DNA of 64,000 bases from Fimbriimonadaceae bacterium (GTDB lineage: Bacteria; Armatimonadota; UBA10988): positions 6,339 through 70,338 of the forward strand of contig JADZEX010000040.1 of the NCBI GenBank assembly GCA_020850355.1, written 5' to 3'. The position numbers were made by a program, and so were the translations under genes. Shown in pieces: positions 23,920 through 32,215 of this stretch. Every line of letters starts with the position of its first letter. Position 1 is the stretch's first letter. Below the pieces are notes generated by a model. It searched no databases, was not told the origin of the DNA, and worked only from the letters and a program-made list of their open reading frames with translations.

Positions 23920-23933
23920 TAACCCTGCTCCGT

Positions 23934-24004
23934 TGGGGAGTCGTCTAGTGGCAGGACAGCGGACTCTGGATCCGTATGCGGGGGTTCGAATCCTCCCTCC
24001 CCAA
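23934..24004 (+). tRNA. tRNA-Gln (anticodon CTG)
   Basis: Manual fold: acceptor TGGGGAG/CTCCCCA, D-arm GTCT-AGTGGCA-GGAC, anticodon stem GCGGA/TCCGT with loop CTCTGGA (anticodon CTG), T-arm GGGGG-TTCGAAT-CCTCC. Confidence 0.85.
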
Positions 24005-24007
24005 TTT

Positions 24008-24080
24008 GGCCCCATCGTCCAGTGGCCTAGGACGCGGGATTCTCGATCCTGAAACAGGGGTTCGACTCCCCTTGGGGCTA
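24008..24080 (+). tRNA. tRNA-Glu (anticodon CTC)
   Basis: Manual fold: acceptor GGCCCCA/TGGGGCT, D-arm GTCC-AGTGGCCTA-GGAC, anticodon stem CGGGA/TCCTG with loop TTCTCGA (anticodon CTC), T-arm AGGGG-TTCGACT-CCCCT. It lies 3 nt after tRNA-Gln. Confidence 0.85.
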
Positions 24081-24094
24081 TCCCCAGGATCTCG

Positions 24095-24160: not shown

Positions 24161-25300
24161 ATGATCGCAGCCCGACTCGCGCCGCGGTTGCTGCCCACGT
24201 TGTTGCTGCTGAGCAGCTTGGCCCACGCTGACGTGTCGGTGCCGTTCGCCCGATTCTACGAACAGTACGCCGCCGCCGGGGTGGTCTACGATCCGCTCTG
24301 GAACGACCTCCGCGCCCGTCCCGACCTCTACGCACAGCGGGCCATCGCCTATCAGGTGCTGGTCAAGGGCCGCATCGACAGCCCGTCGGAGACCCGGCTG
24401 ATCGCCTACACGACGCGCGACGAGGCGGTCACCATCGTCTGCCCCGGTGGCTGCGCCGCGGCCGCGCTGGGGACCTGGATCGGGGTGATCGGCGGCCTGA
24501 CGCCCGAGGGCAACCTGCTGCTGGCGGCGGCGGTGACGCAGATCCGGCCGCCGCAACTGCACACCACCACCTCCACCACCACCGCCGCGCCGAGTGGTGA
24601 CACGGGCTCGGCCAACGGTGCCGCCGGGGTGGCGCAGCAGCCGGCCGGGGCGACCGCCCCGACCGCGCCGCAGAGCACCGCCGCGCTGACGCCGCGCCTG
24701 CCCGACGGCACCGCGCCGCTGCCGGCCGAGGGGCTCAAGTCGCGGACCACCGCCCTGCCCGGCGGACAGCCCACCGCCGCCCAGACGGCCACCGCCCTGG
24801 CGGCCGCCGAGGCCAACGCCATCGCTCGCCTGGAGCGCTTCATCACCACCCGCAACCGCCGCATCGATCCCGCCGAGCGGCGGCTGATTGCGACCGAGAT
24901 CCTGCGCTGGTCGCGCTACCACGGCTTCCGCTGGGAGTTCTTCGCAGCGGTGATCGCCGCCGAGTCCGACTACAACAAACGCTGCGTCAGCTCGGCCGGC
25001 GCGATGGGGCTGGGGCAGCTGATGCCCTTCAACTGCAAGGACTTCGGTGTCAGCGACCCGTTCGATGTGCGGCAGAACCTGGCCGGGTCGGCGGCGCACC
25101 TGCGCGAGTTCCTCGACAAGTACCGCGACCGCGACGCGCTGACGCAGTTCCAGTTGACCCTCGCCAGCTACAACGCCGGGCCGGGGGCGGTCCGCAAGTA
25201 CGGCGGGGTGCCGCCCTACAACGAGACCATCAACTACATCAAGAAGATCGCCGACCTCTACGTGCGGCTCTGCAACGAGAGCGCCGCCGCTGGCGGCTAG
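24161..25300 (+). CDS. Secreted lytic transglycosylase (SLT/GEWL-like domain)
   Basis: Signal peptide MIAARLAPRLLPTLLLLSSLAHA. ESDYNKRCVSSAGAMGLGQLMP...LASYNAGPGAV is the SLT catalytic E-S...GLMQ...AYNAG pattern. GGAG lies 9 nt upstream. Confidence 0.85.
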   Translation: MIAARLAPRLLPTLLLLSSLAHADVSVPFARFYEQYAAAGVVYDPLWNDLRARPDLYAQRAIAYQVLVKGRIDSPSETRLIAYTTRDEAVTIVCPGGCAAAALGTWIGVIGGLTPEGNLLLAAAVTQIRPPQLHTTTSTTTAAPSGDTGSANGAAGVAQQPAGATAPTAPQSTAALTPRLPDGTAPLPAEGLKSRTTALPGGQPTAAQTATALAAAEANAIARLERFITTRNRRIDPAERRLIATEILRWSRYHGFRWEFFAAVIAAESDYNKRCVSSAGAMGLGQLMPFNCKDFGVSDPFDVRQNLAGSAAHLREFLDKYRDRDALTQFQLTLASYNAGPGAVRKYGGVPPYNETINYIKKIADLYVRLCNESAAAGG

Positions 25301-25499
25301 TGTCCTGTCGCAGATCGACGGGTAGCGGGCGGAAACAGGCTCTGGCGGCTCTGCGACGCCGTCATCGAACCAGCCCATCGCGCCGGTAGGTCGGATGCCC
25401 AGGTCCGCCCTGGGGCCGGCGAGAAGCACAGGCGACTGTGCAAGTACGCGAACATTCAGTGCCTCATTGGCGTATGATGACCAACGAGGAGAGCACACC

Positions 25500-26660
25500 A
25501 TGGACGTCGTCCAGCCCCCGGACGAGGGAGTGTTGGCCGGCCTCGGCGAACGCCTTCGCATCCGTCGCGATGCGGTGGGCCTGAGCGTCCGCAAGCTCGC
25601 TGAGCAACTTGGCGCCAGCCGTAACACCATCACGAACTACGAACAAGGCCACACCGTGCCGAGCACGAGTGATCTGGTTCGGCTCGCGGCGGCTCTGGGG
25701 TGCACCTTGGTTGACCTGCTCGACCTGCCAGCATCCCAGCCACCGGCGCGCTTCGCCTTTCGCGCCCACAAGGCGCTTCAGAGCAATCCGGACGTCGCGG
25801 TCATGGCGCAGAAGTACCTGCGGGCCTATGCCGACATCGAGGAGATCTGCGACGCGCGCCTGCCACGCCGGCTGCGCCGGGCACCGGTAGCGACGGCGGG
25901 GCCGAACCTGGACCTGCGCATCGCGGCGACCGCCGAACGCGTGCGTGAGGACTCCGGGTTCGCGGAGCTGGGCCCGACCAACATCGTGCAGGCCCTTGAG
26001 AACCTCGGGGTGCGCTGTATCTTCTTCCAGCATCCGACCCCCGGTCTGGATGGGATCAGCGTCGAACAGGACGAAATGAGCCTCGTGCTCTTGCCGGACC
26101 GGGCGCAGGTCGTCGAGCGCGTTATCTTCAGCGCCGCGCACGAGCTGGGTCATCTGGTGCTGCACCCCGAGTTGTTCACGGCAGCGGCCCAGAAGGTGGA
26201 CGACGCCCGCGACTACGAGCACGAGGCCCATGTGTTCGCGGCCAGCTTCCTGGTGCCGGAGGGCGACCTGCTGCGGACCTGGCAGGATGAACGGCTGGCC
26301 CGGTTGCCCCTGGAGCGTGCGCTGCTGGTGCTCAAGTGGCGCTTCCAGGTCAGCTTCTGGGCACTTTTCGAGCGCGTGCGCGGGCTAGGGTTGACCGAGA
26401 CCACCTATCCGGCGTTGACCACGAGCGTGAAGCGCCTACTTGGCTTCGAGGGTCGCGCCAGTCGGCAGGACCTGGAACCCCAGCCGCTGCCAGCCGGCGC
26501 CTTGTACCGCTCCACACGGTTCGAGCGTCTGGTCTACAGTGCCTTCGTCCAAGAGGAGATCGGGGTCGCCAAGGTCGCAGAGCTGCTGCAACTGACCGTC
26601 GATGATGCCCGACGTCGCACCGCGGAGTGGATCAGGCCCCGTGCTGAACTGGTGGGATGA
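25500..26660 (+). CDS. XRE-family HTH fused to an ImmA/IrrE (M78) zinc-metallopeptidase domain
   Basis: LRIRRDAVGLSVRKLAEQLGASRNTITNYEQGHTVPSTSDLVRLAAALGCTLVDLL is the Cro/C1-type HTH. AAHELGHLVLH...E is the HEXXH of ImmA/IrrE. GAGGAG lies 8 nt upstream of ATG 25500. The ORF-track extension to 25395 is rejected. Confidence 0.85.
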   Translation: MDVVQPPDEGVLAGLGERLRIRRDAVGLSVRKLAEQLGASRNTITNYEQGHTVPSTSDLVRLAAALGCTLVDLLDLPASQPPARFAFRAHKALQSNPDVAVMAQKYLRAYADIEEICDARLPRRLRRAPVATAGPNLDLRIAATAERVREDSGFAELGPTNIVQALENLGVRCIFFQHPTPGLDGISVEQDEMSLVLLPDRAQVVERVIFSAAHELGHLVLHPELFTAAAQKVDDARDYEHEAHVFAASFLVPEGDLLRTWQDERLARLPLERALLVLKWRFQVSFWALFERVRGLGLTETTYPALTTSVKRLLGFEGRASRQDLEPQPLPAGALYRSTRFERLVYSAFVQEEIGVAKVAELLQLTVDDARRRTAEWIRPRAELVG

Positions 26661-27162
26661 GGCGCTCTGGGACACTTGCTCGTTGATCACACTGGACCTA
26701 CTGGTGCAGTGGGACGCCGGGTTCCGCGAACACGTCGGGGCACCGCGCTGTGTGGCGGTGAGCCTGTCGGACGACAACCTGCGGCCTGACACCGCGGGGC
26801 GCCTGACGACTCTGGTCGGGCCGGTTGTGGAACCGCCAGACCTGCTGACCACTGTCGGATTCCTCCGTACGGCCGACCTGCCGCGCGCCGTGGCCGAGGT
26901 CGACCGCGTCGTCTACGTCACGGCAGCCCACCATCGGCTCGCCGTGGTCACCGCCGACCGCAAACTCGCCCGAGCCATCGCGGCGCGGCACCAGCGGGTT
27001 GGCAACATGGCGCTGATCCTCAAGGAACTGGTGACCAGCCGTGCGATGGCGGCTGCAGCGTGCGACTCGGCGCTGGCGCGCCTGGCTGCCCAGCAGGAGT
27101 TCCTGTTGCCACCCAGCGGTCCGCAAGGTTGGACTGGCCTCAGGAGCTACCGCTTCCCGTGA
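26602..27162 (+). CDS. PIN-like domain protein (DUF4411-like), the partner of the HTH/M78 gene. The start is uncertain (ATG 26602 or GTG 26641) and overlaps the upstream gene.
   Basis: The N-terminus has acidic residues within the hydrophobic stretch (VLNWWDEALWDTCSLITLDLL), and the C-terminus has LAVVTADRKLARAIA (PIN-like D...T.D pattern). The ORF is in a different frame overlapping the 3' end of 25500..26660 by 20-59 nt. Confidence 0.5.
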   Translation: MMPDVAPRSGSGPVLNWWDEALWDTCSLITLDLLVQWDAGFREHVGAPRCVAVSLSDDNLRPDTAGRLTTLVGPVVEPPDLLTTVGFLRTADLPRAVAEVDRVVYVTAAHHRLAVVTADRKLARAIAARHQRVGNMALILKELVTSRAMAAAACDSALARLAAQQEFLLPPSGPQGWTGLRSYRFP

Positions 27163-27312
27163 GCAACTACGAACCAAGCGGAATAGAGTACAATCGGGTC
27201 GAGCGATTCGGCGGCCATGGGGCGTCTCTGCAAGGCCGATCCCAGCACCTTGGACCGTTTGGAACGCGCGCTTGAACTTCGATTCCGGTTTGGATGATCA
27301 GGACACCAGGCG

Positions 27313-29682: not shown

Positions 29683-31080
29683 TCAGTCTGGGGGCGCCTC
29701 CGGCCGCGGCAGGTGTAGCGTGAAGGTGGAGCCCGTGCCGGGCTGGCTGACCACGCTGATCCACCCGCCGTGCACCTCGGCCAGGCGCCGCACGAGGTGC
29801 AGGCCGACCCCGGTCCCGGTGATCTTGCGCTCCGGGGCGGTCAGCCGCTCGAACGGCTCGAAGACCCGCCCGGCCTGCTCCGGAGTCAGCCCGAGGCCCT
29901 CGTCCGTGACGGCGATCCGCAGCTCCGCGCCCGCCTCGCTCAAGCGCACGCTGACCAGTCCGCCGGCGGGCGAGTACTTCACGGCGTTGTTCACCAGGTT
30001 GGTGAGAATCTGGTAGAGCTTGTCGCCGTCGACCTCCCGCAAGGGCTGCGCCAGGTCGCTGTGCAGTTCGAAGGTATGACGGTCGGTGGCCAGCTTCTGG
30101 GCCTCGATCACGCTCCGCGCCAGCGCCGGCAGGTCGGTCGGCTCCAACCGCAGGTCGGGCTCGCGGCCGGCTTCCAGGCGGGCCGTGTCGAGCATGTTGT
30201 GCAGCAGCCGCATCAACCGGCCGCAAGTCTCGACGCACAGGCCAAGCATCTCGCGCTGCGCCTCGGGCGGCACCGGCAGCGCCAGCAGCGTCTTGGCAGC
30301 GCCCTGGATGCCGGCCAGCGGGTTCTTCAGCTCATGCGCGACGTCCCGCACGGCCTCGTCGCGGAAGCGCACCAACTGCTCCAGCTTGGCGCGGCGACCC
30401 TCGCTGCGGATCAGCTCCTGCGCCAGCGCCACGCCGCAGAAGACGCAGAACAGCGCCGCGCCAAGGCTGTGCAGGCTGACGCTGACGCGGGTCTCGGGGA
30501 AGAAGAGGATCAGTATCACCACGATGAAGCCGTCCAGCACGGCGACCGCCATGCCGGCCAGAATCACCGGCAGCCGCGCCTGCAACGGCGCGAAGCCGAC
30601 CTCGTGCCGGCGCCGCCAGCCGCGCATCAGGACCACCCAGGCGATCACCGCCTCGAGCAGCAACAGCGGCATGATCCACCGGAACAGCGGCCCGATGTTG
30701 AACCAGCGCCCGGGGGTGGCGCTGACCAGGACGAAGCTGTCGGTGAAGACCAGGCCGACCATCAGGACGCCCAGCAGGTAGGTCAGCGCGATGCCCCGCC
30801 GGCTGCGCCGCAGACCCGACACGAGCAAGGCCAGGTGCAGGAAGAGGGTCACCGCGCTGACCACCCCGACGTACTGGTTGCGCAACCAGAACAGCGCCTG
30901 GGGGCGCTGGATGTCGATGTTGGTGAGGTACGACGAGAGCGCCATCCAGCCCAACGCGAGGGCCAGCACGGCAAACACCAGATCGGCCAGGCGGCGGCCG
31001 AAGCGGCGGTGGATCACCAAGAAGGCGACGGCAATCTCGAGGCACAGCACCGCCGCCACCACCGGCACCAACATCGCCAT
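29683..31080 (-). CDS. Sensor histidine kinase with a 7TM (7TMR-DISM-like) membrane sensor domain
   Basis: MAMLVPVVAAVLCLEIAVAFLVI... has seven hydrophobic helices. HELKNPL is the H-box, and LTNLVNNAVKYSP...DEGLGL...GTGVGL are the N, G1 and G2 boxes. GGGAG lies 6 nt upstream of ATG 31080. The ORF-track extension to 31458 is rejected. No response regulator is adjacent. Confidence 0.85.
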   Translation of the reverse strand: MAMLVPVVAAVLCLEIAVAFLVIHRRFGRRLADLVFAVLALALGWMALSSYLTNIDIQRPQALFWLRNQYVGVVSAVTLFLHLALLVSGLRRSRRGIALTYLLGVLMVGLVFTDSFVLVSATPGRWFNIGPLFRWIMPLLLLEAVIAWVVLMRGWRRRHEVGFAPLQARLPVILAGMAVAVLDGFIVVILILFFPETRVSVSLHSLGAALFCVFCGVALAQELIRSEGRRAKLEQLVRFRDEAVRDVAHELKNPLAGIQGAAKTLLALPVPPEAQREMLGLCVETCGRLMRLLHNMLDTARLEAGREPDLRLEPTDLPALARSVIEAQKLATDRHTFELHSDLAQPLREVDGDKLYQILTNLVNNAVKYSPAGGLVSVRLSEAGAELRIAVTDEGLGLTPEQAGRVFEPFERLTAPERKITGTGVGLHLVRRLAEVHGGWISVVSQPGTGSTFTLHLPRPEAPPD

Positions 31081-31299
31081 CGACCAACTCCCATCCCAAG
31101 GAGTCTGACGCGGACGCCGCCCCGCCAAGTTCCCCTGACGCCGCAGGGCTACGGCGCGCCTGTGACCTGATCTGCCGCAGCCTTCCCTCGGATCGACGGC
31201 AGTCCGTGCACCAGTCGCGCCACGGCGGCGCCGTCCATCGCGAGGGCACCGGCCTCTGGGGCGCGGAGCGGCTCGACCGCCGCTTCGCTCGCACCGTAG

Positions 31300-32215
31300 C
31301 GGCGCAGGCGCGCTGCAAGCAGTCGTCGGCCGTCCGCCGGCTGCTGAGGCCGCCCCAGTGGCCGGGGAAGTCGGTGTTGTGCGCCGTCGTCGATCCCGCC
31401 CCGTCCAGCTCCGCCAGCAGGTTCTGCCCGTCCCACACGAACTGCGTCGTGCCCGCACCCGTCACCTTCCGCCGCCGCAGGCCGTCCGCGGCGTAGGTGT
31501 AGGTCTCGAGTCCGGTCAATGTCTCGACCGCCACCAGTCGATGCTCCGCATCCCAGGTGTAGCTGGTCAGCCCGCTCGGGCGCGGGTCAGTGAGCGTATT
31601 CCCGTTACCACCATAAGCTATGCTGGTGATCCACGAGTCCCCGGCGCTGGCGAAGGCCGTGGCGTTGGCGCTCCTGAGCGGGCCCGGATGGCCGACGCGT
31701 TGGAACGTGATGGCCAGCAGCGGGGCGGTGTCGGCGTCGACCTCAATCGGCGCGGGCAGCGCCAGGATCACCTGGTGCGCACCGGCGGCGCTGATGGTGG
31801 CGCTGGCGAGGGTCTCCAGGACCGTCCGATCCGCCGCGAGCGTCTGCAACGTCACGGTCCAGTGGTTCGACCCATCCCAGGTCCCCGTCGCCGCCACCAC
31901 CACGAGACTCGCCTGCTCGACCATCAAATCGGCCGCGGGCAGCGTGTAACGTAGCGCCAGGGCCGCACAGCTCAACGGCGGCGCGACGACCGGCTCGAAG
32001 ACGCACAGCGCCCCCAGCGTGGCGACATCGGACACTCCGGCCAACCGTTTCGGCTGATCTCGCAGCGTCCCTGCCCCCGGCGCGTGGTCGGCCGCGAAGC
32101 CGGATCGCCGACGCAACAACGGCGACACATCACGCGGGCATACTGATCCCGCTGTCGCGGACGGAGGACACAGGAAGTGAGCTGGCCGAAGCTCACCTGC
32201 ACCGCTCAAGACCAT
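31300..32215 (-). pseudogene. RHS/YD-repeat protein fragment (probably a degenerate remnant; boundaries approximate)
   Basis: The frame encodes ...TSYTWDAEHRLVAVETLTGLETYTYAADGLRRRKVTGAGTTQFVWDGQNLLAELDGAGST..., i.e. two or three canonical YD repeats (YxYDxxGRL). There is no plausible stop before it runs into the histidine-kinase upstream region. It starts 17 nt from the divergent pseudopilin gene. Confidence 0.4.

What the first reader, a model, noticed from the sequence alone, without database searches (positions are those of the whole stretch)
25500..27162. tRNA-proximal XRE-HTH/M78-peptidase plus overlapping PIN-like gene pair (toxin-antitoxin or phage-defence-like module)
A single polypeptide fuses a Cro/C1-type HTH to an ImmA/IrrE zinc peptidase domain with an intact HELGH motif. 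It is followed, in an overlapping reading frame, by a protein of about 170 aa with PIN-like acidic motifs.

HTH-M78 regulators are the SOS-independent derepression switches of mobile elements, and M78/PIN(DUF4411)-type pairs are recurrent but functionally uncharacterised. Here the pair sits about 1.4 kb from a tRNA-Gln/tRNA-Glu pair, separated only by a lytic transglycosylase. No integrase or other mobile genes are nearby, so it appears to be a stand-alone chromosomal module, possibly a protease-activated nuclease.
Basis: partly seen in the sequence, partly recalled or inferred. Interest (0 to 1): 0.6.

Follow-up and report, generated by a model that had tools for sequence, protein, structure and literature searches.

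The report
Inserted peptidase-regulator plus PIN toxin cassette
A two-gene cassette (a DNA-binding zinc-peptidase regulator followed by a small PIN-fold RNase-like protein) was inserted into a conserved housekeeping operon; it belongs to the known RosmerTA-type toxin-antitoxin/anti-phage class but carries a rare, unnamed PIN toxin family.

Summary

B is not DUF4411. It belongs to a small discrete family (89 hits among 1.84 billion representatives, mostly Planctomycetota) that matches no Pfam, NCBIfam, PHROG or PADLOC RmrT model at threshold.

An A homolog lies directly upstream of B in all 22 loci examined. About half of the independent contexts also carry defence genes nearby (Pycsar, HsdR, a DrmD/HmaA-like helicase, Schlafen).

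The tRNA proximity is incidental. Related genomes have tRNA-Gln-tRNA-Glu-SLT-PAP2 contiguous, so the 2.0-kb cassette is an insertion between SLT and PAP2, and its GC3 is lower than that of its flanks.

The likely mechanism is inferred by homology, not shown here. A autorepresses the operon and neutralises B, and a phage or stress signal inactivates A and frees the RNase. One caveat: the window's B has Ala where most of the family has the canonical PIN glutamate.

Verdict: a new member of a known kind, of modest interest.

The parts
25301..27312 (+). Whole inserted cassette (2012 nt): own 5' region, gene A, gene B and a 3' tail, sitting between the SLT stop codon and the PAP2 start codon
   Evidence: In orthologous loci L026, L027 and L028 the SLT stop and the PAP2 start are 3-8 nt apart. 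GC3 of A and B is 0.82, against 0.89-0.96 in the flanking genes.
25440..25499 (+). Putative promoter and 5'UTR of the cassette: TGTGCAAG, a -10-like TATGAT (25474-25479) and GACCAACGAGGAGA with the ribosome-binding site
   Evidence: The block TA(T/G)(G/C)ATGACCAAC(G/C)AGGAGA...CCATGGAC is shared with the closest A homolog locus, L022. More distant loci show TTGTCAA-17-TATAAT flanked by inverted TGCACAA-N5-TTGGCAT sites. The consensus sigma-70 scan found nothing here, so this part is inferred.
25500..26660 (+). Gene A: XRE-HTH (aa 15-73) + ImmA/IrrE M78 zinc peptidase (aa ~137-263; HELGH at nt 26139-26153; E240/E242 region as the likely third ligand) + all-helical C-terminal domain (aa 271-378). 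RmrA-like antitoxin/repressor.
26641..27162 (+). Gene B: 173-aa PIN-fold protein and putative RNase toxin. D11 at nt 26671-26673, D88 at 26902-26904, T104-x-D106 with D106 at 26956-26958. The canonical Glu position (39) is Ala.
26641..26660 (+). 20-nt overlap between the end of A and the start of B (translational coupling); GGAG lies at 26624-26627
   Evidence: Sequence. Homologous loci have a 20-32-nt overlap or a 9-nt gap.

Best explanation
This is a horizontally acquired, self-contained two-gene toxin-antitoxin / abortive-infection cassette of the RosmerTA type.

Gene A is the RmrA-like component. Its N-terminal DdrO/ImmR/CapH-like HTH binds operator sites at the cassette's own promoter and keeps expression low. 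The rest of the protein (M78 peptidase plus helical C-terminal domain) holds the toxin in check.

Gene B is a PIN-fold, metal-dependent ribonuclease. It is translationally coupled to A.

When a phage- or stress-derived signal activates the peptidase, or otherwise destabilises or titrates A, repression and neutralisation are both lost. B then cleaves cellular and/or phage RNA, arresting growth of the infected cell.

What is shown here:
- the domain and fold identities;
- the strict A-B linkage;
- the insertion into a housekeeping operon;
- the association with defence islands;
- conserved promoter-proximal inverted sites in relatives.

What is inferred from characterised relatives:
- toxicity of B and its neutralisation by A;
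- the nature of the trigger;
- the RNA target;
- anti-phage activity.
For: 1. A matches 14 PADLOC RmrA models. The best is E 5.6e-39 over aa 17-376. It also matches phrog_2439 at 2e-43.
3. B has a PIN fold. D11 is conserved in 28/28 family members, D88 in 27/28, T104 in 27/28 and D106 in 25/28.
4. An A homolog (50-73% identity) lies directly upstream of B in every locus that carries B: 20/20, plus L021 and L025. The genes overlap or are 9 nt apart.
5. Defence genes neighbour the module. True Pycsar (PycC 3e-107, PycTIR 5e-105) sits head-to-head with it in L013, and Pfam-level equivalents in L001 and L025. HsdR is in L010, a HmaA/DrmD-like helicase in L003 and a Schlafen protein in L014.
6. The cassette is an insertion with a deviating GC3.
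7. Literature: RosmerTA defends against phage and delta-rmrA could not be obtained. ImmA-domain proteins are validated antitoxins and associate with PIN-like toxins. The HTH-DUF955+PIN class is described.
8. Inverted bipartite sites flank a TTGTCAA-17-TATAAT promoter upstream of A in L003, L006, L013 and L015.
Against: - No RmrT model in PADLOC matches B or any of 28 family members, so automated tools would not call RosmerTA here.
- The window's B has Ala at position 39, where 20 of 28 family members have the canonical PIN glutamate. Its nuclease may therefore be weakened or dead.
- The window's upstream region lacks the clear operator palindromes seen in distant relatives, and no consensus promoter was found.
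- A lacks the GAF domain of IrrE/CapP, whose groove with the peptidase domain binds ssDNA. The trigger therefore cannot be transferred from those systems.
- In this genome the cassette is not in a defence island.
- Nothing here tests toxicity, neutralisation or phage defence.
Confidence: 0.72

Rival explanations
1. Transcription-only switch of the CapH-CapP fusion type. A is purely a damage- or infection-responsive repressor that cleaves its own HTH (or that of a sister molecule). B is simply the effector whose expression is induced, and A does not neutralise B directly. In some genomes the same regulator also controls the divergently transcribed Pycsar operon.
For: - A hits PADLOC capP (2.5e-14) and capH (2.8e-9).
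- Lau 2022 reports 15 CapH-CapP fusions, and a vapC-like gene plus a CapH-CapP fusion-like gene beside a DISARM operon.
- In three divergent loci (A 67% identical to one another, cyclases 53-67%) the module sits head-to-head with a Pycsar operon.
Against: - The RmrA models score far better than capP/capH (132 vs 51 bits).
- A has no GAF domain: its C-terminus is all-helical. The ssDNA-binding groove of CapP is therefore absent.
- The A-B pairing is universal, while Pycsar adjacency occurs in only 3 loci.
- A repressible promoter with no post-translational check on a PIN toxin would be leaky.
- Delta-rmrA is not obtainable in RosmerTA, which fits either model but is classically read as antitoxin behaviour.
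Confidence: 0.15
2. Protease-activated nuclease. B is made as an inactive pro-form, and the M78 peptidase of A cleaves it to switch the nuclease on. The cleavage could remove, for example, the family-specific conserved C-terminal tail ...W-x2-L-x2-[YH]-R-F-P or the N-terminal WW segment.
For: - B carries about 40 residues beyond a minimal PIN core, with conserved termini: W4/W5, W164 and F172-P173.
- Proteolytic activation of defence effectors is an emerging theme (Evans 2025, cited).
Against: - That study contains no M78/ImmA system.
- Known M78 substrates are HTH repressors.
- The AF2 model of B is a compact, confident single domain with no obvious occluding pro-peptide.
- RosmerTA genetics point to the peptidase protein as the protective partner.
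- In the closest A homologs, HEXXH is mutated to QELGH and B is replaced by a fused 108-aa domain. This shows the A scaffold can function without proteolysis.
Confidence: 0.05
3. A decaying or domesticated remnant. The cassette was acquired as selfish addiction cargo, and in this genome B is catalytically impaired (E39A). The pair then has no current defence role, or only A's regulatory role is retained.
For: - The window and its closest B homolog, P0002, both lack Glu39.
- Truncated remnants of the module exist in L019 and L020, and a frameshifted B in L018.
- The closest A homologs have lost B altogether.
- The cassette sits in a solitary housekeeping context.
Against: - Both ORFs are intact and full length.
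- D11, D88 and D106 are retained.
- 8 of 28 family members lack Glu39 yet keep full length and the A partner, which suggests position 39 is dispensable or compensated (for example by D44/D45).
- Matelska lists PIN-like TA families with only 3-4 conserved acidic residues.
Confidence: 0.08

Closest known systems
RosmerTA (RmrT/RmrA) anti-phage toxin-antitoxin systems (Millman et al. 2022; Ernits et al. 2023, NetFlax ImmA node D25)
   Same: The organisation is two genes: an HTH + Zn-peptidase (ImmA/IrrE, M78) protein as the antitoxin partner and a variable small toxin. A matches the RmrA HMMs strongly. The partner is variable, and partner swapping is seen here too (L022). The module occurs in defence islands.
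   Different: B matches none of PADLOC's RmrT models. No PIN-type RmrT was experimentally validated in the papers read; the validated Kita RmrT is a membrane depolariser. Toxicity, neutralisation and defence are untested for this family.
HTH-DUF955(COG2856) + PIN-like three-component TA class of Matelska et al. 2017 (COG2405, DUF4411, PIN_14, PIN_20, PIN_26)
   Same: The architecture is the same: a fused HTH-DUF955 gene upstream of a single-domain VapC-group PIN-like gene. HEXXH is retained. The number of conserved acidic residues is 3-4.
   Different: B is not DUF4411 by HMM. PIN_20 (Actinomycetales) and PIN_26 (Firmicutes) have a different taxonomic range from this family, which is Planctomycetota, Sumerlaeota and Armatimonadota.
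VapBC type II toxin-antitoxin systems
   Different: The partner is a 386-aa HTH-metallopeptidase rather than a small VapB (RHH/AbrB/PHD-type). B is 173 aa with family-specific N- and C-terminal elements. The window protein is below the Pfam PIN threshold.
CapH/CapP, ImmR/ImmA and DdrO/IrrE repressor-peptidase switches
   Same: The HTH and peptidase halves of A are the closest structural matches to these pairs. CapH-CapP fusions, and one next to a vapC-like gene, have been noted. In three loci the module abuts a Pycsar operon.
   Different: A is a single polypeptide. It has no GAF domain and hence no known ssDNA groove. Its constant partner is a PIN protein, not a multi-gene immune operon or a mobile-element integrase.

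Membership tests
RosmerTA (PADLOC/DefenseFinder sense) | RmrA: HTH + Zn-peptidase protein matching the RmrA HMMs | tested here: met
   14 RmrA models match; the best is PDLC03949, E 5.6e-39, aa 17-376 of a 363-position model.
RosmerTA (PADLOC/DefenseFinder sense) | Adjacent gene matching an RmrT toxin HMM | tested here: not met
   No PADLOC family at E<=1 for the window's B. No RmrT hit for any of 28 family members at E<=0.1.
RosmerTA (functional sense) | The toxin is toxic alone, is neutralised by RmrA, and the pair protects against phage | not testable with these tools
   Requires expression and plaque assays. There is only indirect support: strict gene linkage and defence-island neighbours.
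PIN domain superfamily (VapC group) | PIN fold: a Rossmann-like alpha/beta/alpha sandwich with parallel strands | tested here: met
PIN domain superfamily (VapC group) | Four conserved acidic residues (D, E, D, D/N) forming the metal site | tested here: inconclusive
   D11, D88 and D106 are present. The position equivalent to the Glu (39) is Ala in the window, while it is Glu in 20/28 family members. The mapping of position 39 to the PIN Glu rests on HMM coordinates (P0013 aa 39-110 to PIN 41-117) and on secondary structure.
Pfam PIN (PF01850) | Score at or above the gathering threshold of 23.6 bits | tested here: not met
   The window's B scores 17.8 bits. Two relatives pass: P0007 at 28.2 and P0008 at 24.6.
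DUF4411 (PF14367) | Match to the PF14367 HMM | tested here: not met
   PF14367 is not listed at E<=1 for the window's B or for any of 9 close relatives.
Peptidase M78 (ImmA/IrrE) | Pfam PF06114 above threshold, with HEXXH and a downstream Glu ligand | tested here: met
CapP/IrrE three-domain peptidases | C-terminal GAF domain forming the ssDNA-binding groove with the peptidase domain | tested here: not met
tRNA-targeted genomic island | Insertion at the tRNA 3' end, with an integrase and a direct repeat of the tRNA end | tested here: not met
   tRNA-Gln-tRNA-Glu-SLT is conserved in relatives that lack the cassette. The insertion point is between SLT and PAP2. There is no integrase and no significant terminal repeat.

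The most novel reading that the evidence does not exclude
The A clade and the B family form a distinct sub-type in which the fused HTH-M78 protein is a GAF-less sensor. It would respond to a new, non-ssDNA trigger and control two outputs at once: a PIN RNase encoded in cis and, in Planctomycetota, the divergently transcribed Pycsar operon. That would be a shared 'master switch' linking a TA-type effector to cyclic-nucleotide immunity. A sharper variant is that A activates B by cleaving its conserved termini.
Probability: 0.1. Interest if true: 0.6.

Novelty: new member of a known kind. Interest (0 to 1): 0.3.

Why it matters
The finding adds a rare, unmodelled PIN-like toxin family to the RosmerTA / ImmA-PIN class. 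The family is found mostly in Planctomycetota and, in this window, in an Armatimonadota MAG. Current defence-finder HMM sets would miss such systems because only the RmrA half is recognised.

It also gives a clean natural example of a 2-kb, integrase-less defence/TA cassette dropped into a conserved operon.

The family includes a cultured host, Tautonia plasticadhaerens, where the module abuts Pycsar, so the regulatory-coupling question could be tested. None of this changes the understanding of the class.

Tried and rejected
- DUF4411 / VapC HMM membership: rejected or below threshold.
- NCBIfam and PHROGs for B: no hits.
- NCBIfam spr1629 antitoxin for A: 80 bits against a cutoff of 335, so not an equivalog.
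- PADLOC RmrT for B and its family: none.
- Sequence-profile search of B against PDB: only noise.
- afdb50 fold library: unavailable.
- tRNA-linked island: rejected by synteny.
- att-like direct repeats and terminal inverted repeats: not significant. An 8-bp perfect inverted pair, GTGTCCTG (25300) / CAGGACAC (27299), lies at the two junctions. A comparable coincidence arises in about 1.5% of random junction pairs, and the motif is absent from other loci, so I treat it as chance.
- Consensus promoter/terminator scan: nothing useful.
- B in plasmid (PLSDB) and phage (INPHARED) collections: no tblastn match.
- Exact-sequence look-up of the window's own B: not on record.
- Evans 2025 proteolytic-activation paper: no M78/ImmA systems.
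- A literature search for a solved HTH-M78 antitoxin complex found nothing.
- An A-B complex model was not attempted, because the structure tool returns no interface metrics.

Full report
**Observation**

The two ORFs exist as described. Gene A runs from 25500 to 26660 on the + strand (386 aa). Pfam places an XRE-type HTH at aa 15-73 (HTH_31 E 5e-15, HTH_3 E 7e-13) and Peptidase_M78 at aa 167-290 (E 7e-12), all above the gathering scores. The HELGH motif is at nt 26139-26153.

Gene B is in another frame and ends at 27162. It could start at ATG 26602 (186 aa) or GTG 26641 (173 aa). Homologs are 169-173 aa and begin exactly where the GTG lies, so I take 26641 as the start. That gives a 20-nt overlap with A. 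ARAGORN finds tRNA-Gln at 23933-24005 and tRNA-Glu at 24007-24083. The gene between them and A is an SLT lytic transglycosylase. The closest database entries name the source as a Fimbriimonadaceae (Armatimonadota) MAG.

**What gene B is**

At sequence level B is nearly orphan. It has no hit in NCBIfam, PADLOC or PHROGs, and only a sub-threshold PF01850 PIN hit (17.8 bits against a gathering score of 23.6). DUF4411 does not match.

The word-indexed search of 5.8 billion proteins found 8 relatives. A full HMMER profile search of 1.84 billion cluster representatives found 89, of which about 25 are full length. It pulled in no canonical VapC. This is therefore a small, discrete family.

Family-wide conservation is as follows:

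| Position | Residue | Conserved in |
|---|---|---|
| 11 | D | 28/28 |
| 88 | D | 27/28 |
| 104 | T | 27/28 |
| 106 | D | 25/28 |
| 39 | E | 20/28 |

Position 39 maps to the canonical PIN glutamate by HMM coordinates. The window protein has Ala there, so its nuclease may be attenuated. I could not check the active-site geometry because model coordinates are not exposed.

**What gene A is**

A matches 14 PADLOC models of RmrA, the antitoxin of the RosmerTA defence system. The best is E 5.6e-39 over aa 17-376. The capP and capH matches are much weaker (2.5e-14 and 2.8e-9). A also matches phrog_2439.

A has no GAF domain. The ssDNA-sensing groove described for CapP and IrrE is therefore absent, and the trigger cannot simply be transferred from those systems.

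**Linkage**

I fetched loci for B homologs from metagenomes and from GTDB species representatives. tblastn places an A homolog (50-73% identity, full length) directly upstream of B in every locus that carries B: 20 of 20, plus L021 and L025. The two genes overlap by 20-32 nt or are 9 nt apart.

Hosts are mainly Planctomycetota (Planctomyces, Kuenenia, Pirellulaceae, Schlesneria and the cultured Tautonia plasticadhaerens). One host is Sumerlaeota, and this window adds an Armatimonadota MAG.

A is more conserved than B (50-57% against 33-44% identity to the window). The A clade is larger than the B family, which fits partner swapping. The closest A homologs (73-79% identity, 493-495 aa) have no B gene. 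Instead they carry an in-frame 108-aa C-terminal extension with no Pfam match, and their HEXXH is mutated to QELGH.

**Context elsewhere**

In L013 the module is head-to-head with a bona fide Pycsar operon (PycC E 3e-107, PycTIR E 5e-105). L001 and the T. plasticadhaerens replicon CP036427.1 (L025) have the same cyclase-SEC-C-cNMP/TIR arrangement at Pfam level. These three loci are divergent: A proteins are 67% identical to one another, B 49-53%, and the cyclases 53-67%. L025 is flanked by transposases.

Other contexts:
- L010 has a type I restriction R subunit directly downstream.
- L003-5 have a HmaA/DrmD-like SNF2 helicase (5.6e-170) 1.6 kb upstream.
- L014 has a Schlafen/AlbA_2 protein downstream.
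- L009 sits among low-GC3 ORFans.
- L011, L012 and L017 show nothing recognisable.
- L015, like the window, is a solitary low-GC3 cassette between housekeeping genes.

About half of the independent contexts therefore carry recognised defence genes.

**Context here: an insertion unrelated to the tRNAs**

Orthologs of the SLT gene (51% identity) in three other contigs lie in the order tRNA-Gln(ctg)-tRNA-Glu(ctc)-SLT-PAP2-LPG_synthase_TM-MlaE. The SLT stop and the PAP2 start are only 3-8 nt apart. In the window the same genes flank a 2012-nt segment, 25301-27312, that holds only A and B.

GC3 of A and B is 0.82, against 0.89-0.96 in the neighbours. There is no integrase, no att-like repeat and no significant terminal repeat. 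An 8-bp inverted pair at the two junctions is probably chance. The tRNA proximity is therefore inherited from the SLT locus and says nothing about the module.

**Regulatory sequences**

Upstream of A in L003, L006, L013 and L015 a TTGTCAA-17-TATAAT promoter is flanked by inverted bipartite sites (TGCACAA-N5-TTGGCAT / ATGCCAA-N5-TTGTGCA). These are the expected signature of an autoregulated HTH operon.

The window has only a degenerate version: TGTGCAAG, TATGAT and a shared GACCAACNAGGAGA leader that is conserved with its closest relative, L022. The consensus scan found no promoter. This part is inferred.

**Mechanism**

The best-supported reading is a RosmerTA-type toxin-antitoxin / abortive-infection cassette. 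A represses the operon through its HTH and neutralises B. A phage or stress cue activates the peptidase or removes A. The PIN RNase B then arrests the cell.

Three published observations support this by analogy:
- RosmerTA defends against phage, and delta-rmrA could not be obtained (Millman 2022).
- ImmA-domain proteins are validated antitoxins and are associated with PIN-like toxins (Ernits 2023).
- The HTH-DUF955+PIN architecture was catalogued and interpreted the same way by Matelska 2017.

Toxicity, neutralisation, trigger, RNA target and defence are all inferred, not shown.

The rivals are:
- a transcription-only switch of the CapH-CapP fusion type, possibly also controlling Pycsar in Planctomycetota (Lau 2022 noted such fusions, one beside a vapC-like gene);
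- protease activation of B, which has no direct support;
- a decaying remnant, given the E39A substitution.

**Novelty and verdict**

What is new is modest. B represents an unmodelled PIN-like toxin family, so PADLOC-type tools would see only an orphan RmrA. The cassette is a clean, integrase-less insertion into a conserved operon. A sub-clade is recurrently coupled to Pycsar.

I rate it a new member of a known kind, interest 0.3.

Noticed in passing
L001:1672-7516; L013:3490-8525; L025:4331-9657: In three divergent loci the A-B module is divergently adjacent to a Pycsar operon: cyclase, SEC-C-motif protein, and a cNMP-binding/TIR or PycTM effector. One of the loci is the cultured Tautonia plasticadhaerens, CP036427.1. 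Across the three loci the A proteins are 67% identical, B 49-53% and the cyclases 53-67%. A may act there as a CapH/CapP-like regulator of Pycsar, or the two systems may simply travel together.
   Followed up: partly
L022:8001-9482 (also L023, L024): The closest homologs of gene A (73-79% identity) are 493-495 aa and have no B gene. Instead they carry an in-frame 108-aa C-terminal extension (ELPGANPPEPQVMKVRLWLVVENN...DPERSW) with no Pfam hit. Their HEXXH is mutated to QELGH. This looks like a partner swap or fusion with a probably dead peptidase. An AbiEi_4 gene lies 3 kb downstream.
   Followed up: partly
window 25300-25307 and 27299-27306: A perfect 8-bp inverted pair, GTGTCCTG / CAGGACAC, sits at the two junctions of the inserted cassette (extended, 12 of 14 positions are complementary). 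About 1.5% of random junction pairs in this region show a comparable coincidence, and the motif is not found at module ends in other loci. It is probably chance.
   Followed up: yes
L003:4540-4740, L006, L013:6600-6830, L015:6200-6410 (upstream of gene A homologs): There is a conserved promoter-operator architecture: TTGTCAA-17-TATAAT flanked by inverted bipartite sites TGCACAA-N5-TTGGCAT / ATGCCAA-N5-TTGTGCA, plus a recurring ATGCCCAAG. In some loci ATGCCCAAG is the start of gene A itself. In others it may open a short upstream ORF.
   Followed up: partly
L019:782-1175; L020:4-244; L018:2329-2836: Some copies of the module are decayed. L019 and L020 keep only the C-terminal end of A and the first 22-59 residues of B. 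In L018, B is split over two frames, either by a frameshift or by an assembly error.
   Followed up: no
window 31500-32215 (- strand): The N-terminal part of a long minus-strand ORF (30332-32215) reads like RHS/YD repeats (…YTWDAEHRLVAVE…YTYAADGLRRRKV…). The ORF overlaps the histidine-kinase ORF 29683-31458 in another frame, so gene boundaries here need proper calling.
   Followed up: no
L021:1822-2049: A DUF2188 gene lies directly downstream of the module in the closest B-containing relative. Lau 2022 mentions a DUF2188 + nucleotide cyclase system associated with CapH/CapP-like genes.
   Followed up: no
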